From Halomicronema hongdechloris C2206 (GTDB lineage Bacteria > Cyanobacteriota > Cyanobacteriia > Phormidesmidales > Phormidesmidaceae): a DNA stretch of 32,000 nucleotides. The DNA is taken from positions 1,590,001 through 1,622,000 of the forward strand of contig NZ_CP021983.2 of NCBI RefSeq assembly GCF_002075285.3. Direction: 5' to 3'. Below the pieces are notes generated by a model that was given only the letters and a program-made list of their open reading frames with translations, was not told the origin of the DNA and did not search any database. Each line of letters begins with the position of its first letter. Position 1 is the first letter of the stretch. The position numbers and the translations under genes are program-made. Of the stretch, positions 2,649 through 18,278 are shown one piece after another.

Positions 2649-3944
2649 TTAAATACACAGACGCTGATAGATCTGATCTAAGTGGCGCAAATGATGTTGT
2701 GGGTCGAAGCAGGCAGCGATTTCTTCAGTCGATAAGTACTGCTTCACTTGCTCATTATGGCGGATTTGAGCTTGGAAATCGCCGTCTTCCCGATTCCAGG
2801 CGCTATGGGCGCAAGATTGAACGATGGCATAGGCATCTTCTCGACTCATGCCCTTATTGACTAGGGCTAGCAATATCTGCTGACTAAAGACGACGCCGCC
2901 GTAGACGGTCATGTTGCGCTGCATGTTGTTGGGATGCACCAAGAGATGCTTCACTAAGTCGGTGATCTCTACCAGCATAAAGTGCACCAAAATGCAGGAA
3001 TCGGGAAAGATCACCCGTTCCACTGAACTATGGGAAATATCCCGTTCGTGCCACAGAGCCACATTTTCCAGGGCGGCCATGGCATTGCTCCGGAGGATGC
3101 GAGCTAGCCCAGTCAGCCGTTCAGAACGAATGGGGTTGCGTTTGTGGGGCATGGCTGAGGACCCTTTCTGCCCTTGGGCAAAAAATTCCTCGACTTCTAA
3201 AACATCGGTGCGTTGCAGATTTCGTATTTCTACGGCAAACCGCTCGATAGAGGCCGCCACCAGGGCCAGGGCATTCATAAATTCACTATGGATGTCTCGG
3301 GAAATGACCTGGGTTGAGGCGGTATCGGGCCGTAATCCTAGTTTTTGGCAGGCGAGGGCCTCTACTTTGGGATCGATGTTGGCATAAGTACCGACGGCAC
3401 CGGAGATCTTACCGACCGCAATGTGCTCTTGCAGTTGGGTTAATCGCTCTCGGTGGCGCAGCATCTCAGCTAGCCAGCCAGCCAGCTTAACGCCAAAGGT
3501 GATCGGTTCGGCATGAATGCCGTGGGAACGGCCGATCATGACTGTGTGGCGGTGTTTTTGAGCTTTATAGCGCAGGGCCTGGATCAGGTCTTCCAGGCAA
3601 CTCATGATCAGCTGTAAGCTATCCACCAGCTGCAGGGATAGAGCCGTGTCTAGCATGTCGGAGCTGGTCATGCCGAGATGAATATAGCGGCCGGCTTCGC
3701 CCACATGTTCGTTGAGGTTAGTCAAGAAGGCGATGACGTCGTGGCGAACCTCGGCCTCGATCTCAAGAATCCGCTGGGGATCGAATTGGGCCTTGGCCTT
3801 GATGGTCTCGACTGCATCTGAGGGGATGTAGCCCAGTTCTGCCTGGGCTTCACAGACAGCGACTTCGACCCGCAGCCAGGTTTGATACTTGTAGAGGTCG
3901 GTCCAGAGTTGGCCCATTGCGGGCAGGGTATAGCGTTCGATCAA
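2649..3944 (-). CDS. purB: adenylosuccinate lyase
   Basis: Homology starts at (L/M)IERYTLPAMGQLWTD..., which is the canonical PurB N-terminus, and continues through fumarate-lyase family sequence (GSSAMPHKRNP). A TTG at 3944 gives 431 aa. The ATG at 4046 would add 34 non-homologous residues and overlap the upstream gene by 35 nt. Confidence 0.9.
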   Translation of the reverse strand: MIERYTLPAMGQLWTDLYKYQTWLRVEVAVCEAQAELGYIPSDAVETIKAKAQFDPQRILEIEAEVRHDVIAFLTNLNEHVGEAGRYIHLGMTSSDMLDTALSLQLVDSLQLIMSCLEDLIQALRYKAQKHRHTVMIGRSHGIHAEPITFGVKLAGWLAEMLRHRERLTQLQEHIAVGKISGAVGTYANIDPKVEALACQKLGLRPDTASTQVISRDIHSEFMNALALVAASIERFAVEIRNLQRTDVLEVEEFFAQGQKGSSAMPHKRNPIRSERLTGLARILRSNAMAALENVALWHERDISHSSVERVIFPDSCILVHFMLVEITDLVKHLLVHPNNMQRNMTVYGGVVFSQQILLALVNKGMSREDAYAIVQSCAHSAWNREDGDFQAQIRHNEQVKQYLSTEEIAACFDPQHHLRHLDQIYQRLCI

Positions 3945-4011
3945 GGCCCGTGTCGCAGAATACAACCGCTCTATTGTACCCGGCCAGCTTCCCCATGGCG
4001 GCAATCGGGTC

Positions 4012-5046
4012 TTACCCGACGACGGCCTGCCGTACCATGGCTGCATCTAATTGCCGGCCGATGATGACAAGGCGGGTCAAGGGGGGCTCGCCATTAGCCC
4101 AGGGGCGGTCGTAAAAGCTTTCGAAGCGCTGACCAACCCCATGCAGCACTAGGCGTCTGGGTTTTTGGGGGACGTGGACAAAGCCTTTGATGCGATAGAT
4201 TTCTCGCTGCTCTACTAGGGATTGCAGTCGCTGGATTAGCTCCTGGGGCTGAAAACTGTGGTCGAGGGTGAGGGGAATGGCGGTGATGTCGTCGTCGTGG
4301 TCATGGTCTACCGCATGATCATGGTGGCTGGGGCGACTGTCTAGGTTGTCTTCGACGGCGGCATTGAAACCCAACAGCAAATCAGCTGGGAGGGCACCTC
4401 GGTGGCAGGGAACTAATTTAACGCCTGGTGGTAGTTGCGATCGCATCCAGGCCTCCACTTGCTGTCGTGTGGCCTCATCTACCTGGTCCACCTTACTCAA
4501 AAGCACCAGATCCGCACAGCGGAGCTGATCCTCAAATAGTTCCTCAATGGGGGTCTCATGCTCTAGGCTATCGTCGGCCTGACGTTGGGCTTCCAGGGCA
4601 CTGAGGTCTCCCACCAATTGTCCTGAGGCCAGCGCCTCACAATCCACCACCGTGATCACGCCGTCTACTGTGGCCTGGGTGCGAATCTGGGGCCAGCGGA
4701 AGGCTTGCACCAGCGGTTTGGGCAGAGCCAATCCGGACGTCTCAATCACGATGCAATCGATCTGGTCCCGCCGCTGCATCAACATTTGCATTGTGGGTAG
4801 AAATTCCTCCTGCACGGTGCAGCAGAGACAGCCATTGGTCAACTCTACGATAGTGCTTAGGGCAGTCTTATCTTCATCGCAGACCTGACACCCTTGCAGC
4901 AAGTCGCCATCAATGCCCACCTCACCAAATTCATTGACCAGCACCGCAATGCGACGGCCCTGGTTATGTTGCAACAGGTGGCGTACCAGGGTGGTTTTAC
5001 CCGCCCCCAGAAAGCCGGTAATAACGGTCACTGGAATTTTATGCAT
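4012..5046 (-). CDS. COG0523/CobW-family G3E GTPase metallochaperone with His-rich tract
   Basis: Contains a P-loop (ITGFLGAGKTTLV), the CxCC metal motif (GCLCCT), a His/Asp-rich insert (SHHDHAVDHDHDDD) and a CobW C-terminal region. The ATG at 5046 (MHKIPVTVITGF) fits family N-termini better than the start at 5109. Confidence 0.85.
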   Translation of the reverse strand: MHKIPVTVITGFLGAGKTTLVRHLLQHNQGRRIAVLVNEFGEVGIDGDLLQGCQVCDEDKTALSTIVELTNGCLCCTVQEEFLPTMQMLMQRRDQIDCIVIETSGLALPKPLVQAFRWPQIRTQATVDGVITVVDCEALASGQLVGDLSALEAQRQADDSLEHETPIEELFEDQLRCADLVLLSKVDQVDEATRQQVEAWMRSQLPPGVKLVPCHRGALPADLLLGFNAAVEDNLDSRPSHHDHAVDHDHDDDITAIPLTLDHSFQPQELIQRLQSLVEQREIYRIKGFVHVPQKPRRLVLHGVGQRFESFYDRPWANGEPPLTRLVIIGRQLDAAMVRQAVVG

Positions 5047-5251
5047 TGGACTACGTTGGTGGTTGAAACGGCGCTGTAACCTCTGGCGACTGCTCCTCGC
5101 CAAAGCCAAATCCCATTTAACCTACCATGCCCATTGCCATGCCATCCATCGTCAGGGGCAATGCCTAAATCCGCAAATCAGCTCTCCAATCGACTGACCC
5201 CCATTTTCCTACGGTTGCCCGCTTCAGGGCCGTCAACGTCAAAGCAGTTAT

Positions 5252-5266
5252 TGATATATATTTTCA
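5252..5266. promoter_or_regulatory. candidate Fur-family (Zur/Fur-like) 7-1-7 box
   Basis: TGATATA-T-ATTTTCA matches 11 of 14 defined positions of TGATAAT-N-ATTATCA. It sits in the divergent region between the COG0523 gene and the multicopper oxidase gene. A TATACT -10-like hexamer lies at 5273-5278. Confidence 0.3.
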
Positions 5267-5304
5267 ACTGAGTATACTGATTACTGATTGAGCGTCGATC
5301 CCTA

Positions 5305-6309
5305 ATGGCTGAGTCTCCTCCATCCCATCCCCGGACAAGACGCCCCTGGCGGCGACGGCAAGTTCTGGCCTGGGCTGCTGCTGGTATGGGGGCCCTGGCT
5401 CTAGGCGGCTTAGGGCGACATTGGCGCCGCCAGTCTTTGGCAGAGGTTCGCGTCCCTACCCAGGACGCGGCGATGGATCTGAACCTACCCTACGACCCTA
5501 TCGCCCTGCTACGGGACTTTAACTACGGTACCCTGCGTCACGAAGCAACCGGGCCAGTGCGGGAGTTTGAGGTGGTGGCTGACAGCGTGACCCTCCCCCT
5601 AAACTCGGCCATTTCCTTCGTCAGTTGGAACCTGAACAGACGGGTGCCTGGTCCCACCTTACGGGCCCAAGCCGGGGAGCGGGTGCGCATTATTTTCCAC
5701 AATCAAGATGGGCATTCTCATAGTTTGCACTTTCACGGCACCCACCCAGCGGCCATGGATGGCATCGATCCAGTGCGCCACGGTAAAACGTTTATCTATG
5801 AGTTCGATGCCGAGCCCTTTGGGGTGCATCCTTATCATTGCCATATCGAACCCGTCACCCGCCACATCGGCAAAGGACTCTACGGGCTCTTGATCGTAGA
5901 TCCTCCCCAAGCCCGCCCCTCGGCCGATGAGATGGTCTTGGTGATGGCTGGCTATGACATCAATGACGACCAACGCAATGAGCTGTATGCGTTCAACGGT
6001 ATCCCCAATATTTACCGGGACCATCCCATTGCCATCTATCAACATCAGCGAGTGCGGCTTTATCTACTCAATATGATCGAGTTTGACCCCGTCGCCAGCT
6101 TTCATATTCATGCCAACCTGTTTCAGGTATATCCCACTGGCCGCACCCTAGAGCCTAGCCAAGAAACGGATGTGATTACCTTGGGAACAGCGGAGCGGCA
6201 TATTTTAGAATTTGCCTACGCCTATCCAGGCTGCTACATGTTCCATCCCCACCAGGACGTGATGGCCGCCAATGGCTGCATTGGCTACTTCGACGTGCTC
6301 AAGGCCTAA
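5305..6309 (+). CDS. Tat-exported two-domain multicopper oxidase / cupredoxin protein
   Basis: Twin-arginine signal (RRPWRRRQVLAWAAAGMGALALG). Copper-ligand motifs are HSLHFHG (HxHG), YHCHIEPVTRHIGKGL (HCH...H), FHIHAN and FHPHQD. Size (334 aa) is similar to SLAC/NirK. Confidence 0.8.
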   Translation: MAESPPSHPRTRRPWRRRQVLAWAAAGMGALALGGLGRHWRRQSLAEVRVPTQDAAMDLNLPYDPIALLRDFNYGTLRHEATGPVREFEVVADSVTLPLNSAISFVSWNLNRRVPGPTLRAQAGERVRIIFHNQDGHSHSLHFHGTHPAAMDGIDPVRHGKTFIYEFDAEPFGVHPYHCHIEPVTRHIGKGLYGLLIVDPPQARPSADEMVLVMAGYDINDDQRNELYAFNGIPNIYRDHPIAIYQHQRVRLYLLNMIEFDPVASFHIHANLFQVYPTGRTLEPSQETDVITLGTAERHILEFAYAYPGCYMFHPHQDVMAANGCIGYFDVLKA

Positions 6310-7350: not shown

Positions 7351-8010
7351 ATGCTATTCCAGGTTCCCGAGGTATTAACCCCAGACGAGTTAACCCAGCT
7401 GACTCAGACCTTAACCCAGGCCGAATTTATCGATGGAAAACTGACCGCTGGTTGGCATGCCAAGCTGGTCAAGCATAATCAGCAACTGGCCAAGACGGTG
7501 CCAGAAGCCGCCAGCCTGAAACAGCAAATCAAGACCGCCTTAAATCGCCATCCTCTGTTTCAGATTGCGGTGCGGCCCAAGACCATTCATTCGATTCTAT
7601 TTAGTCGCTACACTGCCGGTATGAGCTATGGTCTCCACGTCGATAATGCTCTGATGGCGGGCCATCGCTCTGATGTGTCGTTTACAGTGTTTCTCTCGGC
7701 TCCAGAAGAGTATAGCGGTGGTGAGTTGGTCATTGCCGGCCCGGACGATGAACAAGGCTACCGACTCACCGCTGGCTCAGCCTTGGTGTATCCATCCACG
7801 ACTCTACATCGAGTAGATCCGGTGACCCAGGGAGAACGGCTGGTGGCTGTGGGGTGGGCCCAGAGTTGGGTACGGGATGCGGCCCAGCGAGAGCTATTAT
7901 TTGATCTAGAGACAGCCCGCCGCAGTTTATTTGCCAAGGACGGTAAGACCCCTGAGTTTGACTTGCTGTCTAAGAGCATGGCGAATCTATTGCGCCGTTG
8001 GTGTGATTAA
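7351..8010 (+). CDS. piuC: PKHD-type Fe(II)/2-oxoglutarate hydroxylase (PiuC/YbiX family)
   Basis: The N-terminus MLFQVPEVLTPDELTQL...FIDGKLTAGWHAKLVKHNQQL is family-typical. It also has HVDN (HxD) and a distal His (STTLHRV), and a family-typical size of 219 aa. Confidence 0.8.
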   Translation: MLFQVPEVLTPDELTQLTQTLTQAEFIDGKLTAGWHAKLVKHNQQLAKTVPEAASLKQQIKTALNRHPLFQIAVRPKTIHSILFSRYTAGMSYGLHVDNALMAGHRSDVSFTVFLSAPEEYSGGELVIAGPDDEQGYRLTAGSALVYPSTTLHRVDPVTQGERLVAVGWAQSWVRDAAQRELLFDLETARRSLFAKDGKTPEFDLLSKSMANLLRRWCD

Positions 8011-8028: not shown

Positions 8029-8604
8029 TTATGAGTGCGTAGGCCCACTGACCGGATAGGGGCTGGTCTCAGCCTGGGGGCAATGACGCTGCAGTAACAT
8101 GGGCAACTGGGCTGGAGATACCCGGCTGTGCAAGGTCTTGCCGATGCGCAGATTAGGGCCATGTTTACAGTGCTTTAGGCAACCGGTGCGCTCTAGGGCG
8201 ATGTCGCTACGCTCGGCATCTACCTGCTTGAGCGCCTGCCACAGGGCGTTGCCACCACGCTTACAGCAGCTGCCCTTACCACAGACTTGAATGCGATGGG
8301 CCTGCCGGGGCGAAACCGAGGCGGGCTCAGGGGGCAACTCCAGGGCTGTCTGAGGAGTGAGGGGAATCACCTGGATGGCTTTCAAGCTGTCTTTCTTGCT
8401 GCGCACCCACACTCGCACCGGAGCTCCTAGGGTGAGTTCCCGTGCGATCGCATAGCGTAGGGGCTTGGGCAATTTAACCGCGTAGGTGCCCTGAGGAGTC
8501 TGCAGTCGAATCCCCTTCAACTTGCCGTGATCGGAGCGAATATCGGCGACATAGGTACCCTGCAGAATCCCTTGATGCCGCAGCCTATCAGCATATTGAG
8601 TCAT
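8029..8604 (-). CDS. thioredoxin-like [2Fe-2S] ferredoxin domain protein
   Basis: The C-terminal half has the Cys pattern CGKGSCCKRGG ... TGCLKHCKHGPNL, typical of thioredoxin-like 2Fe-2S ferredoxins. The N-terminal domain is unassigned. Confidence 0.65.
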   Translation of the reverse strand: MTQYADRLRHQGILQGTYVADIRSDHGKLKGIRLQTPQGTYAVKLPKPLRYAIARELTLGAPVRVWVRSKKDSLKAIQVIPLTPQTALELPPEPASVSPRQAHRIQVCGKGSCCKRGGNALWQALKQVDAERSDIALERTGCLKHCKHGPNLRIGKTLHSRVSPAQLPMLLQRHCPQAETSPYPVSGPTHS

Positions 8605-9897: not shown

Positions 9898-12800
9898 ATG
9901 GACAGCTATCCTTATCGACAGCCAACAGTCTCCTATCCCCTGTCTCCGAACCAGAAATTACTGTGGTTAGCCTACCAACTGGCCCCTGATAGCCCTGCCT
10001 ATAACATCTACACGACAGCCCTGATTAAAGGAGCCATTGATACGGCACTTTGGCAAGACAGCTGGAAATATGTTGTCAAGACCCATCCGATTCTGCGGGC
10101 AACCTATCGATGGCATCAGGCTGAACCTGAGCAGGTGATCCATGCAGCCACTTCCCCAGACCTCACATTTAAAGTCATTCATGCATCTGAACTAAGTGAG
10201 GAAGAAGTCAGGCAATATATTCTGGCAGAATCCCGAGATCCGTTTCGCCTAGAAACTGGACCAACCCTAAAAGTCTGTCTCTTTCAGCGAGCACCACAGA
10301 TACATATCCAATTAGTCACTATCCATGAAATCTCAGGGGAACTCCGCTCCCTGAGTATCCTACTCAGAAAATTTCTGCAACGTTACTCCAAGGTTCAAGG
10401 ACATGAATTATCTACTCGGGGATTCAAGCTCTCTGAAAGCTCGGCCTTCACTGAGGGGTACTTATCGCACTCAGCCACGACAATCGTTCAGGAACCCTCA
10501 GCTAAGCATTGGCAATACCCAACGTACATTAACTGGCAAGCCGAGCTACTGTCCACTGAAACAGGCATTCAACTGGGAAACTACTGGGAAAACTATTTGG
10601 CCGATTCTCCAGTCAAGTTAGAACTTCCCATTGATTATCCTCGGCCGCTTAGCCCGAGTTATCACGGTGACGTTTATCTCAACCATCTAGAAGCCACTGA
10701 AGTCACCCAGATTAAGGGGTTTAGTAAGGAACACAATGCTAGCTTATTTGTGATTTTACTGGCCAATTTCTATGCTCTGTTAAGTCGAATTTGCCAGCAA
10801 GAAAACCTATCAGTTGGTATCCCACTCATGTCGAGCTGGTTAGATGAAGAACGTTCTAACACTGTCCTTGGCATGTTGGCTAATTTAGTTCTGTGTCGGC
10901 TTAACTTAACTGGGAAACTCTCCTTTCGTGAGATGCTTGAACGAGTAGCTGCTGCCATCGACGAAGTGGCGCAGCATCGAGACTATCCCTTTCTGGACGT
11001 CGCAAACTATTTTAGACATAAGCATAAAGGCATTACCGAGTCGTTGCCAGTGCAGGTCTCATTTAGTTGGGAAGCAGATCCTTACGCTGCTATAGGGGAT
11101 GTAGCCAATAACTTGAGCATTCAGCCCTATCCTATGGGAGAACAAGGAGGGGGGGCATTTGACCTCTACCTCACCGTCATGGAAGTTGAGGATTATCTGC
11201 AGCTATGCTGGAAATATAGCACCGACGTGTTTTCCCGGGAGACGGTTGCTCGCGTTGCCCAACAATTCAAAGCCTTGCTGATGGCTGCTATCGCTGAACC
11301 AGACCGGCCCTTTACCCAACTCAGTCTCTTGTCGAAAGCAGACCAAAGTAGATTATTGACGGCTCAGAGTCAGGCTCACTCCCAACTACCACAACAATGT
11401 ATCCATCAGTTAATTGAGCGGCAAGTTGAGCGTACGCCTGACAACGTCGCCGTTGTCTTCAAGCAAGATCGGCTCACCTATGCTGAGCTGAATCAAGCGG
11501 CCAATCAACTCGCCCATTATTTACAAAGCTTAGGCATTGGCCCCGATACTCTAGTCGGCATTTTCATGCCCCGTTGCCTAGACATGATGATCGGACTGTT
11601 GGGTATTCTCAAGGCTGGAGCCGCCTATGTTCCCATTGATCCAACCTATCCCCAAGAACGCTTAGCGCACATATTTACTGACTGCCAACCATCTACCTTA
11701 CTGGTCCATCAGCAATGCCTTGTCAATGCTCCCGACACGACAGCCCATATCATTGCCTTAGACGCAGAGTGGCCCACAATTGCGAGCCACTCAATCGCCA
11801 ATCCCTTAAGCCAGGTCACTGCTCGAAACTTAGCCTATGTTATCTACACGTCTGGTTCTACAGGCAAGCCGAAGGGAGTCATGATTGAGCATCGATCCCT
11901 AGTCAACTTTGTCCAACAAGCTTGCCAAACCTATGACATTACTTCAGCGGATCGCATCCTACAGTTTTCATCCTTTAGTTTCGATGCAGCTATAGAAGAA
12001 ATTTATACATGCCTGGTCTCGGGAGGAACACTCTTTTTGCGTCCAGAAAATATGATGGACTCTATCCCGACCTTCCTCGAGACCTGTCAAGATTACGAGC
12101 TCACTGTCTTAGATTTACCCACGGCTTACTGGCACCTCTTGGTGGAGGTCTTAGTAGAACAACCCAAGCTATCGTTACCCTCAAGCTTACGGTGCATCAT
12201 TATTGGCGGAGAGCGGGCCAATCCCTACTATGTAAAACAATGGCAGCGCTATCTTGGCATATCCACTGAGCTCATCAATACCTATGGCCCCACAGAGGCG
12301 ACCGTTGTAGCCACAACCTATCAGTTGCCCCATCAGGTGCCTATGGCAACGAACGTGTTAGCCTCGACCGAGATTCCCATTGGTAAAGCCCTAGGTAATA
12401 TCGAGACCTACGTCCTGGATGAGCAGCAGCAATTGGTGCCCTTCGGCCTATCCGGTGAACTATACCTAGGCGGTATTGCCCTGGCCCGGGGATATCTTAA
12501 TGCTCCAGACCTCACCCAGAGAAGTTTTATTCTTAATCCGTTCGGCTCCAGCTCCAATGACCGATTGTATAAGACCGGCGATTTAGTCCGTTATCTCCCG
12601 GATGGGAACTTAGAGTTTTTAGGGCGTGTTGATCAACAGGTTAAAATTCGTGGATTTCGGGTTGATCCGGGAGAAATTGAGTCGGCCATTACAACCTATC
12701 CAGAGGTACGCCAAGCCCTTGTCATTGCCCAATCAGATCACTTAGGCCATCAACAATTAACCGCCTATATCGTATCTAATCTCATCCCCGATCGCATTCC

Positions 12801-14733
12801 CTATCAGACGGAGTGCTGGCTAGACTATGCTGGGAAATCGGCAAAACTAGAAACCGTTGACATCTCTTCATTAGGCATAGGCCTCTCCCAGGCTCCCCCA
12901 GAGTTGTCCCAAGGCGATTCTGTTCGAGTTCGTTTCCCTTTGCCAGGGCGAGATGATGAGCGCTGGTTCAGTGGTCAGGTGATCTGGAATCATGCTTCCC
13001 GAGTGGGTATAGCACTGCATCCGACTACTGCTGATCAAGCCCTGCTGCAAAAAAGTGCTGCTCACCTGCTGGAATCTCAGGGCATACTGCAAGCGCTACA
13101 GCGAACCGTTGCTGGAGCCCTACGCAAGTATTTAAAGCAAAAGCTGCCGGATTATATGATCCCAGCTAGTTTTATTCTGATCAATGCATTACCACTGACT
13201 CCCAACGGTAAAGTCGATAAGCGACAACTACCTCCTCCCTACAGCAGTCAGCTCAAGGTCGATGAACCAGTGCCAGCGTTCCCGCATACACCTACTGAGC
13301 AGTCACTGGCAGAGATTTGGTCTACATTGCTGGGAGTAAAGCAAGTTACGCTAGAAGACAATTTCTTTGAGCTAGGCGGCAACTCGTTATTAGCCATTCA
13401 GTTTGTCAATTGCTTAAGCGAACGGCTGCAGATAGATATTCCAGTTTGGCTCCTGCTCAAGAATCCCACCATTTCCACTTTAGCGAGTGCCATCACCGAG
13501 CAAACTGAAACGAATCATGTTGCCCCAGCAGACGTCCCATATCTGTCGGATTTCGATCTTAAGGCTGAGGCGAATCTCGATCCGAACATTCACTATCCCA
13601 ACCCCATAGACTTTGCCAGGGCGATATCTCCTGCATCCATTCTTCTGACTGGTCCGACCGGATTTGTCGGACCCTATCTGCTGTCAGAACTTCTGATGAT
13701 TACAGACGCCGATATATACTGCCTAGTTCGTCATCGTGCTGGGACTTCATCCAAGCAGCGCCTCGAAGATCACTTAAAATCCCATGGCCTTTGGCATCAG
13801 ACATATCGTCATCGCATCATTCCAGTTGTTGGCGATCTTTCTAAACCATATCTAGGCCTATCAGAACCGCAGTTTGAAGATTTAGCCCAGAGCATCGATG
13901 TTATTTACCATAATGGTGCTTGGGTGAATTTTATGTATCCTTACTCAGCCCTAAAATCAGTTAATGTTCTAGGCACACAAGAAGTGTTGCGATTAGCGGG
14001 ATACACTAAAACGAAACCAGTCCACTTCATTTCCACTCTATCTGTCTTTTCCGATGCTTATGTTGATAGGAGTCCGGTGTTAGAAACGGAGACTCCTCAA
14101 TTTGAGGAAACACTTAAAGCTGGGTATGATCAGACAAAGTGGGTTGCTGAAAATTTGGTCAAAGCAGCGCAGTCTCGAGGTCTACCCATCACCATTCATA
14201 GACTGGGGACGCTTCTCGGGAATAGTCAGACTGGCATCATTAACAAGCCAAATGATTTCTTTGTTAGTTTGGTTAAAGGTTGTCTGCAGCTCGGCAAGGC
14301 GCCCAATCTAGTCAACAATCTCAATCTCACTCCCATAGATTATGTCAGCAAAGCCGTTGTCTCCATCAGTCAAGATCCAAATCACTTGGGTCAAACCTTT
14401 CATATTACCCATCCTCAGGCTATCTCCTGGACGCAATTGATAGATTGCATCCAGGCTAATGGCTATCATTTGGAACTGTGTCCCTATCCTCTATGGCTAT
14501 CACAATTGAAAACTCAAATAGAGGCAGGTTATCCCAATGATTTAGCAACATTTTTATCTACGTTGAGTTCTGAGGATGAGCTGCCATTAGAAAAGGCGGA
14601 GTTTGATAGCCGTTTATCTAAACAAGCTTTATCTAAGCTGTCACTGGTTTGTCCCGAGATTGACAACGATCTGATCGGGAGATACTTGGGCTATCTTGTT
14701 GAAAGCGGTGGACTACAAGTCAAGCCATCTTGA
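9898..14733 (+). CDS. single-module non-ribosomal peptide synthetase, C-A(interrupted)-T-R
   Basis: 1611 aa. The C domain has LSPNQKLLWL and ILRATY. A-domain motifs are LAYVIYTSGSTGKPKGV, FDAAIEE, NTYGPTEATV, GELYLGGIALARGY, YKTGDLVRY, GRVDQQVKIRGFRVDPGEIE, LPDYMIP and PNGKVDK. The carrier domain has FFELGGNSLLA. The terminal reductase has LLTGPTGFVGPYL and YDQTK (YxxxK). Confidence 0.95.
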   Translation: MDSYPYRQPTVSYPLSPNQKLLWLAYQLAPDSPAYNIYTTALIKGAIDTALWQDSWKYVVKTHPILRATYRWHQAEPEQVIHAATSPDLTFKVIHASELSEEEVRQYILAESRDPFRLETGPTLKVCLFQRAPQIHIQLVTIHEISGELRSLSILLRKFLQRYSKVQGHELSTRGFKLSESSAFTEGYLSHSATTIVQEPSAKHWQYPTYINWQAELLSTETGIQLGNYWENYLADSPVKLELPIDYPRPLSPSYHGDVYLNHLEATEVTQIKGFSKEHNASLFVILLANFYALLSRICQQENLSVGIPLMSSWLDEERSNTVLGMLANLVLCRLNLTGKLSFREMLERVAAAIDEVAQHRDYPFLDVANYFRHKHKGITESLPVQVSFSWEADPYAAIGDVANNLSIQPYPMGEQGGGAFDLYLTVMEVEDYLQLCWKYSTDVFSRETVARVAQQFKALLMAAIAEPDRPFTQLSLLSKADQSRLLTAQSQAHSQLPQQCIHQLIERQVERTPDNVAVVFKQDRLTYAELNQAANQLAHYLQSLGIGPDTLVGIFMPRCLDMMIGLLGILKAGAAYVPIDPTYPQERLAHIFTDCQPSTLLVHQQCLVNAPDTTAHIIALDAEWPTIASHSIANPLSQVTARNLAYVIYTSGSTGKPKGVMIEHRSLVNFVQQACQTYDITSADRILQFSSFSFDAAIEEIYTCLVSGGTLFLRPENMMDSIPTFLETCQDYELTVLDLPTAYWHLLVEVLVEQPKLSLPSSLRCIIIGGERANPYYVKQWQRYLGISTELINTYGPTEATVVATTYQLPHQVPMATNVLASTEIPIGKALGNIETYVLDEQQQLVPFGLSGELYLGGIALARGYLNAPDLTQRSFILNPFGSSSNDRLYKTGDLVRYLPDGNLEFLGRVDQQVKIRGFRVDPGEIESAITTYPEVRQALVIAQSDHLGHQQLTAYIVSNLIPDRIPYQTECWLDYAGKSAKLETVDISSLGIGLSQAPPELSQGDSVRVRFPLPGRDDERWFSGQVIWNHASRVGIALHPTTADQALLQKSAAHLLESQGILQALQRTVAGALRKYLKQKLPDYMIPASFILINALPLTPNGKVDKRQLPPPYSSQLKVDEPVPAFPHTPTEQSLAEIWSTLLGVKQVTLEDNFFELGGNSLLAIQFVNCLSERLQIDIPVWLLLKNPTISTLASAITEQTETNHVAPADVPYLSDFDLKAEANLDPNIHYPNPIDFARAISPASILLTGPTGFVGPYLLSELLMITDADIYCLVRHRAGTSSKQRLEDHLKSHGLWHQTYRHRIIPVVGDLSKPYLGLSEPQFEDLAQSIDVIYHNGAWVNFMYPYSALKSVNVLGTQEVLRLAGYTKTKPVHFISTLSVFSDAYVDRSPVLETETPQFEETLKAGYDQTKWVAENLVKAAQSRGLPITIHRLGTLLGNSQTGIINKPNDFFVSLVKGCLQLGKAPNLVNNLNLTPIDYVSKAVVSISQDPNHLGQTFHITHPQAISWTQLIDCIQANGYHLELCPYPLWLSQLKTQIEAGYPNDLATFLSTLSSEDELPLEKAEFDSRLSKQALSKLSLVCPEIDNDLIGRYLGYLVESGGLQVKPS
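9931..11307 (+). other. NRPS condensation (C) domain with degenerate active-site motif
   Basis: Residues ~12-470. The position of HHxxxDG reads IHEISGE (aa 142-148, nt 10321-10341). The second His is kept, while the first His and the Asp are replaced. Confidence 0.75.
11395..13227 (+). other. NRPS adenylation (A) domain
   Basis: Residues ~500-1110 contain motifs A3-A10 as listed for the CDS. The spacing between A8 and A9 is expanded by about 105 aa. Confidence 0.9.
12787..13101 (+). other. PilZ-like insert within the A domain
   Basis: Residues ~964-1068. DISSLG matches the (D/N)xSxxG motif, followed by GDSVRVRFPLPG...FSGQVIWNHASRVGIAL. The RxxxR motif is degenerate (DRIPYQ). Confidence 0.6.
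13288..13497 (+). other. NRPS thiolation (PCP) domain
   Basis: EQSLAEIWSTLLGVKQVTLEDNFFELGGNSLLAIQ. The phosphopantetheine Ser is at aa 1163 (nt 13384-13386). Confidence 0.9.
13633..14697 (+). other. terminal thioester reductase (R, SDR-type) domain
   Basis: Has a TGxxGxxG-type NAD(P)-binding motif (LTGPTGFVG), YHNGAWVN and the catalytic GYDQTKWVAE (YxxxK). Confidence 0.85.
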
Positions 14734-14772: not shown

Positions 14773-17334
14773 ATGCTAACTAATTGGTTTCATAGGAAGC
14801 GAAGGGATGGCTCCCTGACCAGGCAAGCTCTGGCTAAAATTGTGCTGGGAGTCACCTTGGTAATTATCGCGTCTACGGCGCTTAGTTATTTATATATATG
14901 GTCTCTTTTAGAAAATCTGACGAAGAAGAAGCTGAACCAATATATTGTTGAGCGAACGAAACGAGAAGAAACTCTGTTCGAACTAGCCCAGGATAATATT
15001 GAGCTGGTTAAGCAGGTTTGTATTCGCCAACTTAATATGACATCAGCAGAAGACTATTCAGAACAGTACAATGAACTATTTGTGGAATACCCAGATGGAG
15101 TAACCCGTAATCGTCCTAAGTATCCCTACGATCAATATGCTGCGCTTTTTCTAGATGATGATACTGAGGTAACCCCAGATGTTCAACGTCGGGCTGTCAT
15201 CACCTTTGATCTTGCCACCCATTATGGTCGAGCCTGGAACAACCGATTTCCGAATCTCTATTTTTTAGCACCGGAAAACTTTTCGATGGGGTATTGGCCA
15301 ACCTTTAATTGGCCAGCGGAAGCGACTCCAGATGTAGATGAAACTGAGGAAGAGTACTTTTATCTATCGACGCCTGCCTATAACCCGCAACGAGAAACAG
15401 TATGGACTGGTGTGTACATTGATCCCGTTGCTAGAGAGTGGCTTGTTTCAGTCATATCGCCCATCTATATTGATGACCAGCATGTCTTAACGGTTGGTCA
15501 GGATGTCCCTCTAGATGACTTGATTTCACGAACTATCAATCAAACCCTGGAAGGCACATATAACATTATCTTTCGTGGTGATGGTCGTTTAATAGCACAC
15601 CCTGACTTTAAGGAGGAAATTATTCAAAGTGAGGGGCAGTTAACCTTATCAGAAGCCGGAGATGAAAACCTAGAAGAAATATTTAGGTTGATCAAGGCTA
15701 AGGATAACTTGCCCTTAGTTATTAATAATAAATCAGGTCACGAGTTCTTAGCTGTAACTAGAATTACTGGGCCAGGCTGGTATTTTGTCACCGTATTCCC
15801 AAAATCTATCTTATCGAAGCAAGCATCTAATATTGCTGCTTTTGTGTTAATACTGGGAATTACAGTATTGGTGTTAGAACTTATTATTCTATTTCGAGTA
15901 CTTAACCGAGATATTGCCTTGCCTCTGAGAAGGTTGATAACAGCCACCTCTCAGATCGCAGCTGATAACCTTGATGTTGACATTGATGATTCAAAGTCTA
16001 ATGAGTTAGGGCGATTGGCAACTTCGTTTAAGGAAATGGCTGAAAAGTTAAAATCTTCCTTTAAGGCACTAGAGGATATTAACTCAGAGCTAGAGGTTCG
16101 AGTCGAAGAGCGAACCAAGGAGTTGCAAACAGCTAAAGAAGAGGCGGATAGCGCTAATCGTGCTAAGAGCAAGTTTATTGCCAATATTAGTCACGAACTA
16201 CGGACTCCCCTAAATGCTATTTTGGGCATGACTGAAGGGTTGCAAGAAAGAGCCTTTGGCGAAGTCGATGAACAACAGCTAGAAGCATTACAAACTATTG
16301 AGAACAGTGGCAATCATCTCTTAGAATTAATTAATGATATTTTAGATATTGCGAAAATTGAATCGGGGCGGATGGAGCTTCGTTACGCGCCGGTATCCAT
16401 CGCTCATCTCTGTCAAGTAAGTGTTGGTTTTGTTAAGCATGCCGTGCTTAAAAAGCACATTCAATTAGAGACCAGGCTTTCCTCTAATTTGCCTGACTTG
16501 TTGGTTGACGAACATCGGATCAGACAGGTCTTGATCAACTTATTGAATAATGCCTTTAAGTTTACCCCTGAAGGTGGCCGCATTACTCTGACAGCTGAAC
16601 ATCTTCAGCAGGAAGTCTTTGACTCAGGTGATATCGATTATTCGAGGGGTCATTTTTTACGAATTTCAGTTATCGATTCAGGTATTGGCATTGCCCCAGA
16701 AGATTTAGGAAAAATATTTCAACCCTTTATCCAAATTGACAGTGCTCTTAATCGTCGATATACAGGCACAGGTTTAGGATTGGCTTTGATTAAGCGTATC
16801 GTTGAGCTTCATGGTGGCAAGGTAGGCGTTACTAGCCAGTTGGGAGTTGGGAGCTGCTTTACCATTGATTTGCCTTGTACTAAGCCAATGATGTCTGCTC
16901 AATCTTATAACTATGTCGATGTTACTGATATTGCCTCTAGTCAATCCTATGAAAATGCCTCTCCTTTGATTTTAATGGTAGAAGATGAGGAGACTAGTAC
17001 AAGTTCTGTCTTAGATTATCTAGAGACTAGAGGCTATCGAGTTGTGGCCACAGGAAACAACTATCAAACCATTGCCGAAATAGCCCGAATTGAAAACCCA
17101 GATCTAGTCTTGATAGACATTCAAGTATTAAGACCAGATAAACTAGAAAGGATCCGTCAACTTCGTTACGAGCTCGACCTAGGTGATATGCCTATTGTTG
17201 TTCTCGCCCCTAAACCTACATCAGAAACTGATGATCGTTACCTCGCTGTAGGGGTCGATGAATATCTGATCAAGCCAGTGAAGATGAAACAGTTGACACT
17301 CATGATTGAACGGCTCCTTGGCCTAAGCGAGTGA
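14773..17334 (+). CDS. hybrid sensor histidine kinase (TM-dCache-TM-HAMP-HisKA-HATPase-REC)
   Basis: Two TM helices (aa ~21-46 and ~355-378) flank a ~300-aa periplasmic domain with the dCache signature [41 protein letters not shown]-box [18 protein letters not shown] (His474). G-boxes DSGIGI and [18 protein letters not shown]. The C-terminal receiver has [16 protein letters not shown] and DEYLIKP. The gene starts 39 nt after the NRPS stop. Confidence 0.9.
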
Positions 17335-17390: not shown

Positions 17391-18278
17391 ATGAATGGCA
17401 CGATGAATCGGTTAGGTAGCTGGCGGCTGGGCTGGGCAATGCTGGGCAGCGCTGTCTTGATGATGACCGCGGTAGCATGCTCGGCTGAAGAGGCGCCCTT
17501 GGTCATAGAAGTAGAGCCGTCCAGGGTGTCGACAGAAGCCTTGCATCCCTTGCTTGGAGCCAATGTAGTGTACCTAGGGGAACAGCATGATCGGGCTGCT
17601 GATCACGTGACTCAATTGGCCATTATTCAAGGGCTGTATCGGGAAGAGCCCAACCTTGCGATCGCATTGGAGATGTTTCAGCGTCCCTTTCAACCCGTGA
17701 TCGATCGCTACCTCGCAGGAGATATCTCAGAATCCGAGTTACGGGCCCAAACCGAGTATGACCAGCGTTGGGGCTTTCCTTGGCAGTATTACGCCCCCAT
17801 TCTGCGGTTCGCCAAGGATAACCAGCTGCCGGTGCTGGCCTTGAATGCCCCTAGTGAAGTCGTTAGCCAGGTGGCTGACGCCGGACTCGATAGTCTGACC
17901 CCAGAAGACTTTCGCTATCTGCCTCCCCGCCGCGACATCGACACCGGCAATAGCGACTACCAAGCGATTGTGCGAGATAGCTTCGCAGGCCACGGCAGCC
18001 ATGGCGACTTTAACTTCGACAATTTCTTCGCCGCCCAGGTGACCTGGGATGAGACCATGGCCGAGACCATCGCTAATTTCTGGCGAGACTCTCCTGACAC
18101 AACAGTGGTGGTGCTGGCCGGTAGCACTCATATCATTTACGGCTATGGCATTCCCGATCGGGTGGCCCGACGGCTGGGGGATTCCCTGCAACAAACGACA
18201 GTGCTGCTAAATTTTCCCCAGCCGAAGCCATCTAATGCCGCCGACGCCATCGCCGATGTTCTCTGGTATAGCGACTGA
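17391..18278 (+). CDS. ChaN-family (Cofac_haem_bdg / Tiki-superfamily) exported protein
   Basis: Signal peptide (LGSAVLMMTAVAC) followed by VVYLGEQHDRAADH and ALEMFQRPFQPVIDRYLAG, which resemble the ChaN heme-uptake-associated family. Confidence 0.7.
   Translation: MNGTMNRLGSWRLGWAMLGSAVLMMTAVACSAEEAPLVIEVEPSRVSTEALHPLLGANVVYLGEQHDRAADHVTQLAIIQGLYREEPNLAIALEMFQRPFQPVIDRYLAGDISESELRAQTEYDQRWGFPWQYYAPILRFAKDNQLPVLALNAPSEVVSQVADAGLDSLTPEDFRYLPPRRDIDTGNSDYQAIVRDSFAGHGSHGDFNFDNFFAAQVTWDETMAETIANFWRDSPDTTVVVLAGSTHIIYGYGIPDRVARRLGDSLQQTTVLLNFPQPKPSNAADAIADVLWYSD

What the first reader, a model, noticed from the sequence alone, without database searches (positions are those of the whole stretch)
12787..13101. 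PilZ-like beta-barrel inserted inside the NRPS adenylation domain, between motifs A8 and A9
Motif A8 (GRVDQQVKIRGFRVDPGEIE, aa 909-928) and motif A9 (LPDYMIP, aa 1083-1089) are separated by 154 aa. The usual spacing is about 50 aa. The extra ~105 aa read PDRIPYQTECWLDYAGKSAKLETVDISSLGIGLSQAPPELSQGDSVRVRFPLPGRDDERWFSGQVIWNHASRVGIALHPTTADQALLQK. This reads like a PilZ domain. The (D/N)xSxxG motif is present as DISSLG. It is followed by the characteristic GD-V-V-F-LPG ... G-V-W ... G-I-L strand pattern. The upstream RxxxR arginine motif is degenerate (RIPYQ). The A8-A9 gap is the known hot spot for interrupted A domains, where methyltransferase, ketoreductase or oxidase inserts occur. I know of no described PilZ insert there. 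The insert sits on the mobile Asub subdomain, which must rotate between the adenylation and thiolation conformations. A c-di-GMP-receptor-type fold there could gate non-ribosomal synthesis by a second messenger or by a protein partner.
Basis: partly seen in the sequence, partly recalled or inferred. Interest (0 to 1): 0.8.

Follow-up and report, generated by a model that had tools for sequence, protein, structure and literature searches.

The report
PilZ domain nested in NRPS A-domain
A non-ribosomal peptide synthetase of the cyanobacterium Halomicronema hongdechloris carries a complete PilZ-type (cyclic-di-GMP-receptor-type) domain spliced into the mobile lobe of its amino-acid-activating domain; this is one member of an apparently undescribed family that could link second-messenger signalling directly to natural-product assembly.

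Summary
The 1611-aa NRPS (window 9898-14733, +; C-A-T-R) has about 100 extra residues (aa ~961-1062, window ~12778-13083) in the A8-A9 loop of its adenylation domain.

- **Domain identity.** The extra piece scores above Pfam's PilZ cut-off (E 3e-9 in context, 6e-11 excised). AlphaFold2 folds it as a six-stranded barrel plus C-terminal helix (pLDDT 87). Its 36 best Foldseek hits in the PDB are all PilZ domains.
- **Position.** It fills the same loop that methyltransferase inserts use.
- **Family.** It is not a singleton. I found 69 distinct A domains with the same insert, mostly in filamentous cyanobacteria, plus Candidatus Parabeggiatoa and unassigned metagenome contigs. They carry at least 25 different substrate codes. 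dN/dS is 0.30 in the insert against 0.18 in the flanks.
- **Binding motifs.** [D/N]hSxxG is kept in 68/69. Only the second Arg of RxxxR is kept; the first is Leu in this protein. Three inserts keep the full RxxxR: P0014, L058 and repeat 2 of P0172.
- **Reading.** It is most likely a non-catalytic regulatory or interaction module on Asub. c-di-GMP binding is plausible but unproven, and weakened for this protein.
- **Literature.** No paper in the searched library describes it.

It is a new variant of the interrupted A domain.

The parts
9898..14733 (+). NRPS gene, 1611 aa, domain order C-A(PilZ)-T-R
   Evidence: ORF list and translation. Pfam domains Condensation, AMP-binding, AMP-binding_C (split), PilZ, PP-binding and NAD_binding_4. 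100% identical to the H. hongdechloris C2206 'peptide synthetase'.
9898..11358 (+). Condensation domain (aa 1-487) with a degenerate active-site motif: IHEISGE instead of HHxxxDG
   Evidence: Pfam Condensation matches in two stretches. The motif was read from the translation. The orthologues have IHEILGE and IPEISGE, and there the N-terminal ~170 aa is a separate ORF.
11416..12498 (+). Adenylation core (Acore, aa 507-867), with motif A3 YTSGSTGKPKG intact
   Evidence: Pfam AMP-binding E 1.2e-91. TIGR01733 scores 453 bits against a cut-off of 317. The AF2 model superposes on ApnA A1 and PheA.
12595..12777 (+). Asub N-terminal part (aa 900-960): A8 GRVDQQVKIRGFRVDPGEIE and the beta-hairpin that ends in LTAYIVS
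   Evidence: Pfam AMP-binding_C positions 1-35 match aa 926-960 only. Aligns to LgrA 546-640. AF2 strands at model residues 443-452 and 458-466.
12778..13083 (+). PilZ insert (aa ~961-1062): structured linker, six-stranded barrel (aa 972-1040) and C-terminal helix (aa 1044-1060)
   Evidence: Pfam PF07238 above its cut-off. AF2 of the insert alone gives pLDDT 87 and pTM 0.75; the in-context model is. The top 36 Foldseek PDB hits are all PilZ domains.
12787..12801 (+). Linker half-motif P964-D-R966-I-P968. R966 corresponds to the second Arg of RxxxR. The position of the first Arg is Leu962.
   Evidence: The Arg is invariant in alignment A1. It aligns to R700 of E. coli BcsA. Census of the first-Arg position over 68 scored inserts: L 47, V 11, F 5, H 2, I 1, S 1, R 1.
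12859..12876 (+). [D/N]hSxxG motif: D988-I-S-S-L-G993
   Evidence: Read from the translation. S and G are invariant in the family. 65 DhSxxG and 3 NhSxxG among 69 unique inserts.
13084..13272 (+). Asub C-terminal part (aa 1063-1125): native helix, A9 LPDYMIP (aa 1083-1089) and A10 PNGK (K1105)
   Evidence: Aligns to LgrA 641-683 with no gap. AF2 helix at model residues 569-588.
13303..13494 (+). Thiolation (carrier) domain, aa 1136-1199, with the GGNS serine
   Evidence: Pfam PP-binding E 6.7e-15.
13639..14709 (+). Thioester reductase domain, aa 1248-1604
   Evidence: TIGR01746 scores 327 bits against a cut-off of 213. Pfam NAD_binding_4 E 2.9e-68.
14773..17334 (+). Hybrid sensor kinase (dCache-HAMP-HisKA-HATPase-REC), 40 bp downstream. 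It is a conserved neighbour of this NRPS clade and is possibly co-transcribed.
   Evidence: Pfam. The same gene follows the orthologous NRPS in L001, L057 and L032. No terminator-like site lies between the two genes.

Best explanation
The segment is a complete PilZ-fold domain: a linker, a six-stranded beta-barrel and a C-terminal helix. It is nested in the A8-A9 surface loop of the small, rotating C-terminal lobe (Asub) of an otherwise intact NRPS adenylation domain. It defines a family of 'PilZ-interrupted' A domains.

The PilZ fold is not a catalyst, and the insert occurs in A domains with many different substrate codes. I therefore read it as a regulatory or interaction module, not a tailoring domain.

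Proposed mechanism (inferred, not shown):
- The ligand site lies at the junction between Asub and the barrel. It is formed by linker Arg966 and the D988-I-S-x-x-G993 turn. This is the arrangement in YcgR-like proteins and BcsA, where the RxxxR linker joins PilZ to its partner domain.
- Binding of c-di-GMP, or a related nucleotide, would fix the barrel relative to Asub.
- That would favour or block either the ~140 degree Asub rotation between the adenylation and thiolation states or the docking of the carrier domain.
- Loading of the assembly line would then follow the cell's second-messenger state.

In this protein and most of the family the first Arg of RxxxR is missing, so binding is probably weaker or altered. 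Relatives with both motifs intact (P0014, L058, repeat 2 of P0172) are the likely ancestral, fully competent form.
For: Shown:
- PilZ HMM above its cut-off, in context and excised, and in 54 of 55 family members.
- AF2 of the insert gives pLDDT 87 with six strands plus helices. Foldseek's top 36 PDB hits are all PilZ domains, including BcsA, Alg44, MotI, MapZ and YcgR. TM-scores normalised to the target reach 0.78, at rmsd about 2.4 A.
- The in-context AF2 model (pLDDT 83, pTM 0.71) keeps the Asub hairpin and helix and shows the barrel as a discrete excursion between them. The rest superposes on solved A domains.
- The insert sits in a loop of zero length in LgrA. Methyltransferase inserts occupy the same loop.
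- A-domain motifs A3, A7, A8 and the A10 Lys are intact.
- There are 69 distinct inserts with the same boundaries.
- dN/dS is 0.30 in the insert against 0.18 in the flanks, over 30 pairs.
- At least 25 different specificity-position codes occur among 55 insert-bearing A domains.
- [D/N]hSxxG is kept in 68 of 69 and the linker Arg in 68 of 69, at canonical spacing.
- Full RRxxxR plus DxSxxG occurs in P0014, L058 and P0172 repeat 2. P0014 has nearly the same specificity-position code as the window protein.

Against: - The first Arg of RxxxR is Leu962 here. It is a non-basic residue in 67 of the 68 inserts scored. From memory, and not checked here, mutating either Arg abolishes binding in Alg44, YcgR and DgrA.
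- The linker is P-[D/E]-R-x-P-[Y/F]. It has an acidic residue next to the Arg and two prolines. That looks like a rigid structural joint rather than a flexible loop that wraps a ligand.
- No GGDEF, EAL or HD-GYP gene lies in the window or next to the orthologues.
- No binding or activity data exist.
Confidence: 0.5

Rival explanations
1. Degenerate PilZ used as a protein-protein or domain-domain adaptor. The barrel no longer binds any nucleotide. It acts like the non-binding PilZ proteins (P. aeruginosa PilZ, Xanthomonas XC1028). It would serve as a docking surface for a partner protein, for another NRPS domain or subunit, or as a structural brace of Asub.
For: - The first Arg of RxxxR is lost in 67 of 68 scored inserts.
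- The linker motif P-[D/E]-R-x-P-[Y/F] is rigid and conserved.
- The family profile also matches the non-binding 'type IV fimbriae assembly protein PilZ' structures over part of the barrel.
- Purifying selection fits any functional role.
- No c-di-GMP enzymes are nearby.
Against: - [D/N]hSxxG is retained in 68 of 69 inserts at only ~40% overall identity. The only substitution seen at the first position is the one the canonical motif allows, D to N.
- Described non-binding PilZ-related domains have lost both motifs and usually the C-terminal helix or part of the barrel (10.1101/814665). Here the barrel and helix are complete.
- Relatives with fully canonical motifs exist at the same site.
Confidence: 0.35
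2. Tolerated passenger. A PilZ gene fragment was captured in the permissive A8-A9 loop and persists because it does no harm. It has no function of its own.
For: The A8-A9 loop tolerates large natural and engineered insertions without loss of adenylation (PMC11355689). No functional data exist.
Against: - dN/dS of 0.30 is well below 1.
- The same boundaries and several invariant residues (R, S, G, G, W, G) hold across about 40 species-level genomes and more than 25 substrate codes.
- The insert has been duplicated in tandem: three copies in P0172.
- It has been propagated to two successive modules of the same NRPS.
Confidence: 0.08
3. The insert is a catalytic tailoring domain, like the methyltransferase, ketoreductase or oxidase inserts of known interrupted A domains, and acts on the tethered amino acid.
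For: It occupies the loop used by catalytic inserts (PMC11355689).
Against: - The only Pfam match is PilZ, which is a binding fold.
- It is about 100 aa long and has no cofactor-binding motif.
- All close structural neighbours are c-di-GMP receptors.
- It occurs with at least 25 different substrate codes, which is unlike a substrate-specific tailoring step.
Confidence: 0.02

Closest known systems
Interrupted adenylation domains with a methyltransferase between a8 and a9 (e.g. TioS A4aM4A4b, PDB 5WMM; McyA; PchF; KtzH)
   Same: - A whole foreign domain is nested in the same Asub loop, after the 'LVAYVV' strand and before the 'LRxxLxxxLPxYMxP' helix.
- The A-domain motifs are intact on both sides.
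- The junction is structured rather than a floppy linker (PMC11355689).
   Different: - Known inserts are enzymes (M, Ox, KR) that modify the tethered substrate (PMC11355689). The catalogue of bacterial interrupted A domains that I read covers methyltransferase inserts only (PMC8341866).
- This insert is about 100 aa instead of 330-490 aa.
- It is a ligand- or partner-binding fold and is not tied to one substrate.
C-terminal PilZ domain of bacterial cellulose synthase BcsA
   Same: - It is the best sequence-profile match (E 8e-4) and the best structural match.
- A PilZ barrel is fused in cis to a biosynthetic enzyme and controls it allosterically.
- The Arg and DxSxxG are at identical spacing (23 residues).
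   Different: - BcsA has the full RxxxR. From memory, its first Arg is the switch that releases the gating loop. That Arg is absent here.
- In BcsA the PilZ domain is a C-terminal appendage of a membrane glycosyltransferase. Here it is nested inside a domain of a soluble synthetase.
YcgR/PlzD/MotI-type two-domain PilZ proteins
   Same: The binding motif lies in the linker that joins PilZ to the preceding domain, so ligand binding re-orients the two domains (10.1101/814665). These proteins are structural neighbours.
   Different: In those proteins the preceding domain is itself PilZ-like and the output is protein-protein binding to the flagellar motor. Here the preceding domain is Asub of an A domain.
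Non-binding PilZ proteins (xPilZ: P. aeruginosa PilZ PA2960, Xanthomonas XC1028)
   Same: They have an incomplete RxxxR. The family profile partly matches them.
   Different: They lack both motifs and have a rearranged, incomplete barrel. Here DhSxxG, the six strands and the helix are all kept.
MxcG-type C-A-T-R single-module NRPSs (myxochelin synthetase)
   Same: Same domain order, and the best NCBIfam match.
   Different: - The score of 885 bits is far below the equivalog cut-off of 2300.
- The C-domain motif is degenerate.
- MxcG is not reported to have an insert (from memory).

Membership tests
PilZ domain (Pfam PF07238), canonical c-di-GMP receptor | Matches the family HMM above the curated gathering score | tested here: met
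   37.5 bits in context and 43 bits excised, against a cut-off of 22.5. 54 of 55 family members also match.
PilZ domain (Pfam PF07238), canonical c-di-GMP receptor | Six-stranded beta-barrel followed by a C-terminal alpha-helix | tested here: met
   AF2 model with pLDDT 87: six strands, then a helix, and the same in context. Foldseek's top 36 PDB hits are all PilZ domains. This rests on a predicted, not an experimental, structure.
PilZ domain (Pfam PF07238), canonical c-di-GMP receptor | [D/N]hSxxG motif | tested here: met
   D988-I-S-S-L-G993. Kept in 68 of 69 family inserts.
PilZ domain (Pfam PF07238), canonical c-di-GMP receptor | RxxxR motif in the N-terminal loop, about 23 residues before the D/N | tested here: not met
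   Only the second Arg (R966) is present. The first position is Leu962. The full motif occurs only in P0014/L002, L058 and P0172 repeat 2.
PilZ domain (Pfam PF07238), canonical c-di-GMP receptor | Binds c-di-GMP | not testable with these tools
   This needs DRaCALA, ITC or MST, or co-folding with the ligand.
Interrupted adenylation domain (A8-X-A9 type) | A foreign domain lies between core motifs a8 and a9 of an otherwise complete A domain | tested here: met
   A8 is at aa 909 and A9 at aa 1083. The LgrA alignment breaks exactly there. It is the same loop that M inserts use. A3, A7, A8, A9 and the A10 Lys are present.
Interrupted adenylation domain (A8-X-A9 type) | The insert is the catalytic part of a tailoring domain (M, KR, Ox), which makes the enzyme bifunctional | tested here: not met
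   The only match is PilZ, a binding fold. There is no methyltransferase, reductase or oxidase signature.
Non-canonical, non-binding PilZ-related domains (xPilZ) | Loss of both c-di-GMP motifs, usually with loss of the C-terminal helix or part of the barrel | tested here: not met
   DhSxxG, the full barrel and the helix are retained. The criteria are from 10.1101/814665.
MxcG (myxochelin NRPS) equivalog NF038078 | Score at or above the curated cut-off of 2300 bits | tested here: not met
   885 bits. Only the domain order C-A-T-R is shared.

The most novel reading that the evidence does not exclude
c-di-GMP, or another cyclic nucleotide, binds the PilZ barrel nested in Asub and directly switches adenylation or carrier loading on or off. 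Non-ribosomal peptide synthesis in mat-forming cyanobacteria would then be controlled after translation, module by module, by a second messenger. This would be the first sensor-interrupted A domain and the first direct allosteric control of an NRPS by a nucleotide messenger.
Probability: 0.3. Interest if true: 0.9.

Novelty: new variant of a known kind. Interest (0 to 1): 0.72.

Why it matters
Interrupted A domains are known only as a way to add chemistry (methylation, reduction, oxidation) to a building block. A non-catalytic, receptor-type domain at the same site would add a different principle: a sensor or docking module built into the moving part of the catalytic cycle.

If it binds c-di-GMP, it would be the first case of a second messenger acting directly on an NRPS. 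Control of secondary metabolism by c-di-GMP is otherwise known through transcription factors (for example the YajQ-LysR system, PMC6988422).

It would also give a function to PilZ domains in cyanobacteria. From memory, cyanobacteria encode many c-di-GMP enzymes but few known receptors.

For engineers, a roughly 100-aa ligand-responsive cassette that A domains tolerate naturally, with more than 25 substrate codes, is an attractive switch.

The question is directly testable with an excised domain and standard adenylation and loading assays.

Tried and rejected
- **Insert-only searches of the 5.8-billion-protein index.** The single sequence and the 16-sequence profile returned nothing, not even the protein itself. 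I treat this as a limit of the word index, not as absence. The full-length query and the exhaustive representative search found the relatives.
- **phmmer of the insert alone against the PDB.** It gave only chance hits to ribosomal protein S8. The family profile was needed to reach BcsA.
- **The search for related loci with alignments A1 and A2.** I replaced them with a hand-built degenerate DNA pattern for LExQGx4LQRx6RxxLx3LPxYMxP.
- **AlphaFold2 with locus-derived sequences.** I rebuilt the alignment from P-ids. One version (A4) aligned the wrong module of P0239 and P0246, so I discarded it.
- **'The extra length is ordinary A-domain sequence'.** Rejected by the LgrA alignment.
- **'The insert is a small methyltransferase, oxidase or KR'.** Rejected. 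There are no such Pfam hits. The long A8-A9 gaps of about 470-496 aa in the same data set (P0007, P0008, P0020, P0121 first module, L055), and the 373-aa gap of L031, look like methyltransferase inserts. That reading rests on the N- and C-terminal sequence and on precomputed methyltransferase Pfam families for P0007, P0008 and P0020. I did not scan the inserts themselves.
- **Search for GGDEF, EAL or HD-GYP genes next to the NRPS.** None in the window or in L001 and L057.
- **Metagenome scan with the canonical-motif insert of P0014.** It was swamped by ordinary A9 matches. Only L058 and L093 carried an insert.
- **Literature.** Six searches and five papers read found no description. Most 'Pilz' hits are an author's name or the German word for fungus.
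Full report
**What is in the window.**
The finding lies inside a single 1611-aa ORF (window 9898-14733, + strand). The ORF is 100% identical to a protein annotated only as 'peptide synthetase' of Halomicronema hongdechloris C2206, a filamentous cyanobacterium.

Pfam and NCBIfam give the order Condensation, AMP-binding (A core), a split AMP-binding_C (Asub), PilZ, PP-binding, and thioester reductase. This is a single-module C-A-T-R NRPS.

**Checking the observation.**
- A8 starts at aa 909 and A9 at aa 1083, which is 174 aa start-to-start.
- Against the solved LgrA structure, the sequence up to '...AYIVSNLIPDRIP' aligns to LgrA 546-640. The sequence from '...AGALRKYLKQKLPDYMIP' aligns to LgrA 641-683. 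About 100 residues therefore sit where an ordinary A domain has none.
- The extra residues are not misaligned A-domain sequence.

**Is it a PilZ domain?**
- Pfam PF07238 matches with E 3.2e-9 and 37.5 bits (gathering score 22.5) in the whole protein. It matches with E 6.3e-11 and 43 bits for the excised 130 aa.
- AlphaFold2 on a 16-sequence family alignment gives mean pLDDT 87 and pTM 0.75. The model has six beta-strands, a helix and then a second helix.
- Foldseek against the PDB returns PilZ domains for the first 36 places. They include cellulose synthase BcsA, Alg44, MotI, MapZ, PA0012, PA4608, PlzA, VCA0042, YcgR and MrkH. Best E is 5e-6. TM-scores normalised to the target reach 0.78, at rmsd about 2.4 A.
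- A second model covers aa 495-1125, the whole A domain with the insert (pLDDT 83, pTM 0.71). It keeps the Asub hairpin (model residues 443-466).
- In that model the six PilZ strands are at 478-546, the PilZ helix at 550-566 and the native Asub helix at 569-588 leading into A9.
- The rest of that model superposes on solved A domains. It is closest to ApnA A1 (up to 57% identity over the core) and fits PheA at rmsd 4.2 A. It fits adenylation-state structures better than thiolation-state ones.
- In protein numbering the insert is about aa 961-1062, or window 12778-13083.

**Position relative to known interrupted A domains.**
Several proteins in the same data set have 466-492-aa inserts between A8 and A9 (P0007, P0008, P0020 and the first module of P0121). 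P0007, P0008 and P0020 carry methyltransferase Pfam families.

These inserts begin after the same 'RLVAYVVP' strand and end before the same 'LRxxLxxKLPxYMxP' helix. This is the classical a8-a9 interruption site (PMC11355689).

**It is a family, not a singleton.**
- The full-length search found four orthologues with a precomputed PilZ hit (57-81% identity). It also found a 2752-aa multimodular NRPS, P0014, with PilZ in its second A domain.
- The exhaustive representative search added P0121, P0128, P0129, P0135, P0239, P0246 and P0172.
- A degenerate DNA pattern for the conserved junction helix found 54 stretches of DNA in the GTDB species genomes.
- Nearly all of these are filamentous cyanobacteria: many Microcoleus, plus Kamptonema, Pantanalinema, Nostoc, Calothrix, Geitlerinema, Crinalium, Argonema, Aerosakkonema, Leptolyngbya, Allocoleopsis, Halothece and Dactylococcopsis.
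- Candidatus Parabeggiatoa, a gammaproteobacterium, also appears.
- The pattern matches the window itself, yet the window's genome was not returned. The count is therefore a lower bound.
- Translating the loci gave 59 A domains with an A8-A9 spacing of 173-181 aa. Together with the database proteins there are 69 distinct inserts.
- Pfam PilZ is detected in 54 of 55 members tested.
- Some NRPSs carry the insert in two successive modules (P0135).
- P0172 carries three tandem PilZ domains in one A8-A9 loop.

**Is it maintained by selection, and is it tied to a substrate?**
Across 30 pairs of moderately diverged family members, median dN/dS is 0.30 in the insert and 0.18 in the flanking A-domain sequence. 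The insert is under clear purifying selection, somewhat weaker than on the catalytic parts.

I read the ten specificity-code positions off the family alignment. My register for position 278 may be off by one. The 55 insert-bearing A domains have at least 25 different codes. A substrate-specific tailoring function is therefore unlikely. A general regulatory or structural role fits better.

**The c-di-GMP motifs.**
The defining motifs of binding-competent PilZ domains are RxxxR in the N-terminal loop and [D/N]hSxxG (10.1101/814665).
- The second motif is D988-I-S-S-L-G993 here. Across the family it reads DhSxxG in 65, NhSxxG in 3 and ThSxxG in 1 of 69 inserts.
- One Arg is present in 68 of 69 inserts: R966 here, in the motif P-[D/E]-R-x-P-[Y/F].
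- Three lines place R966 as the second Arg of RxxxR. It aligns with the last Arg of RRGYLR in P0014 and of RRSAQR in P0172 repeat 2. It aligns with R700 of E. coli BcsA. It lies 22-23 residues before the D, as in BcsA and P0014.
- It is also followed by the 'hxh' pattern (I-P-Y) described after RxxxR.
- The position of the first Arg is L in 47, V in 11, F in 5, H in 2, I in 1, S in 1, and R in only 1 of the 68 inserts scored.
- The family therefore has a complete second motif and half of the first.
- Three inserts at the same site keep both motifs in full: P0014 (RRGYLR...DLSTGG), the metagenomic L058 (RRHVR...EDISEGG) and repeat 2 of P0172 (RRSAQR...DISTGG).
- P0014's A domain has nearly the same specificity-position code as the window protein (DAETIGTIVK against DAETIGTVVK). 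It also shares the 'LDLPTAYWH' signature.
- The canonical form is therefore plausibly ancestral. This is an inference.

**How it most likely works.**
- Shown: a complete PilZ fold, conserved and under selection, sits on the mobile Asub lobe at the loop that tolerates whole domains. The A domain around it has all its core motifs.
- Inferred: the PilZ fold is a binding module, and its half-motif Arg lies in the linker to Asub. The most economical mechanism is the one used by BcsA and YcgR-like proteins, where ligand binding at the linker and barrel fixes the orientation of PilZ relative to its neighbour domain.
- On Asub, this could favour or hinder the large rotation between the adenylation and thiolation states, or the docking of the carrier domain. 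From memory of the TioS interrupted A-domain structure, the carrier domain passes near this loop.
- I put about 0.3 on c-di-GMP or a related nucleotide being the signal for this particular protein. The chance is higher for the canonical relatives.
- The main rival is a nucleotide-blind adaptor or brace (about 0.35). It is supported by the lost Arg, by the rigid acidic and proline-rich linker, and by the lack of GGDEF or EAL neighbours.
- It is opposed by the near-perfect retention of [D/N]hSxxG at only ~40% overall identity. Described non-binding PilZ relatives have lost both motifs and part of the fold.
- A harmless passenger (about 0.08) fits poorly with dN/dS of 0.30, the invariant residues, tandem amplification and spread across modules.
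- A catalytic insert (about 0.02) has no support.

**Context of this clade.**
- In the window the NRPS is followed after 40 bp by a hybrid sensor kinase with dCache, HAMP, HisKA, HATPase and REC domains (14773-17334). No terminator-like site lies between the two genes.
- The same kinase follows the orthologous NRPS in Leptolyngbya sp. SIO1E4 (L001), in a metagenome contig (L057) and in a Dactylococcopsis MAG (L032).
- The C domain of this clade has a degenerate active-site motif: IHEISGE, IHEILGE or IPEISGE instead of HHxxxDG. In L001 and L057 its first ~170 aa are a separate ORF.
- The enzyme may therefore act as an A-T-R amino-acid reductase whose small product is sensed by the neighbouring Cache kinase. 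That is speculation. It would make the PilZ insert one more input into a signalling module.

**Novelty.**
I searched the library for PilZ together with 'interrupted adenylation', 'adenylation domain', 'nonribosomal peptide synthetase' and 'NRPS'. I also read three relevant papers:
- the survey of PilZ-related domains (10.1101/814665);
- the catalogue of bacterial interrupted A domains (PMC8341866), which covers methyltransferase inserts only;
- a 2024 review listing M, Ox and KR inserts (PMC11355689).

None mentions this architecture. Precomputed Pfam annotations already flag PF07238 in these proteins, so databases 'know' it, but I found no description. The library lacks most subscription journals, so prior mention cannot be excluded.

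I class it as a new variant of a known kind: the interrupted A domain, with a receptor-type rather than a catalytic insert.

**Verdict.**
The functional idea is plausible but untested, and the missing first Arg weakens it for this protein. Interest is 0.72.

Noticed in passing
window 14773-17334 (+); L001 14286-16874; L057 14608-17190; L032 2497-5025 (-): A hybrid sensor kinase (dCache-HAMP-HisKA-HATPase-REC) directly follows the PilZ-bearing C-A-T-R NRPS in four genomes or contigs. The gap is 40 bp in the window, with no terminator-like site. In L001 and L057 further large multi-sensor hybrid kinases flank the pair. This may be a small-molecule synthase paired with its sensor.
   Followed up: partly
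window 9898-11358; L001 9426-9920; L057 9226-9759: The condensation domain of this clade has a degenerate catalytic motif: IHEISGE, IHEILGE or IPEISGE instead of HHxxxDG. In L001 and L057 its first ~170 aa are a separate ORF, whereas in the window they are fused in frame through a poorly conserved linker. The enzyme may work as an A-T-R reductase.
   Followed up: partly
P0172 aa 3069-3443; P0135 aa 406-581 and 1563-1737: P0172 carries three tandem PilZ domains inside one A8-A9 loop. Repeat 2 has a full RRxxxR and DxSxxG. P0135 has the insert in both of its A domains.
   Followed up: partly
L013 ~3400-6000 (Microcoleus sp. K4-B3); paired matches 705 bp apart also in L030, L037, L045, L046, L050, L051, L054, L055: There is an internal partial duplication. 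After A10 and the start of the carrier domain, the sequence restarts inside A8 ('LGDIEAILSQHP...') and repeats the Asub hairpin, the PilZ insert and A9-A10. The module thus has two Asub-PilZ units in series.
   Followed up: partly
L017, L025, L027, L049 (Candidatus Parabeggiatoa): Members of the otherwise cyanobacterial insert family occur in a gammaproteobacterial sulfur bacterium. This suggests horizontal transfer of NRPS genes between mat-dwelling cyanobacteria and Beggiatoa relatives.
   Followed up: no
L002 (P0014, neighbour gene with Por_Secre_tail); L058 4851-5560: Two inserts at the same A8-A9 site keep both c-di-GMP motifs: RRGYLR...DLSTGG in P0014 and RRHVR...EDISEGG in L058. Both have a shorter C-terminal junction than the cyanobacterial family. 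The Por_Secre_tail neighbour of P0014 hints at a Bacteroidota origin. No taxonomy was established for either contig.
   Followed up: partly
L031 aa 750-1123 of frame +1 (Calothrix sp. NIES-4105); P0180, P0189, P0255: Other A8-A9 inserts of 338-373 aa share an N-terminal '...ELPNGM...N..E.......EIF' signature. From memory this resembles FkbM-type methyltransferases; I ran no family scan. In L031 the next A domain of the same locus carries the PilZ insert.
   Followed up: no
window 4012-5109, 5305-6309, 7351-8010, 8029-8604, 17391-18278: The neighbourhood is rich in metal-related genes: a CobW-type GTPase, a multicopper oxidase, a PKHD-type 2OG-Fe(II) oxygenase, a thioredoxin-like 2Fe-2S ferredoxin and a ChaN haem-binding protein. 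These neighbours are not conserved in L001 or L057.
   Followed up: no
window 11380-12498 (A core): The closest solved A domain is ApnA A1, at up to 57% identity over the core. The specificity positions read about DAETIGTVVK, with Glu at position 239. From memory, that suggests a basic amino-acid substrate.
   Followed up: partly
window 13069-13163: The degenerate junction pattern matches the window, but the genome-collection scan did not return the Halomicronema genome. The family counts from that scan are therefore lower bounds.
   Followed up: yes
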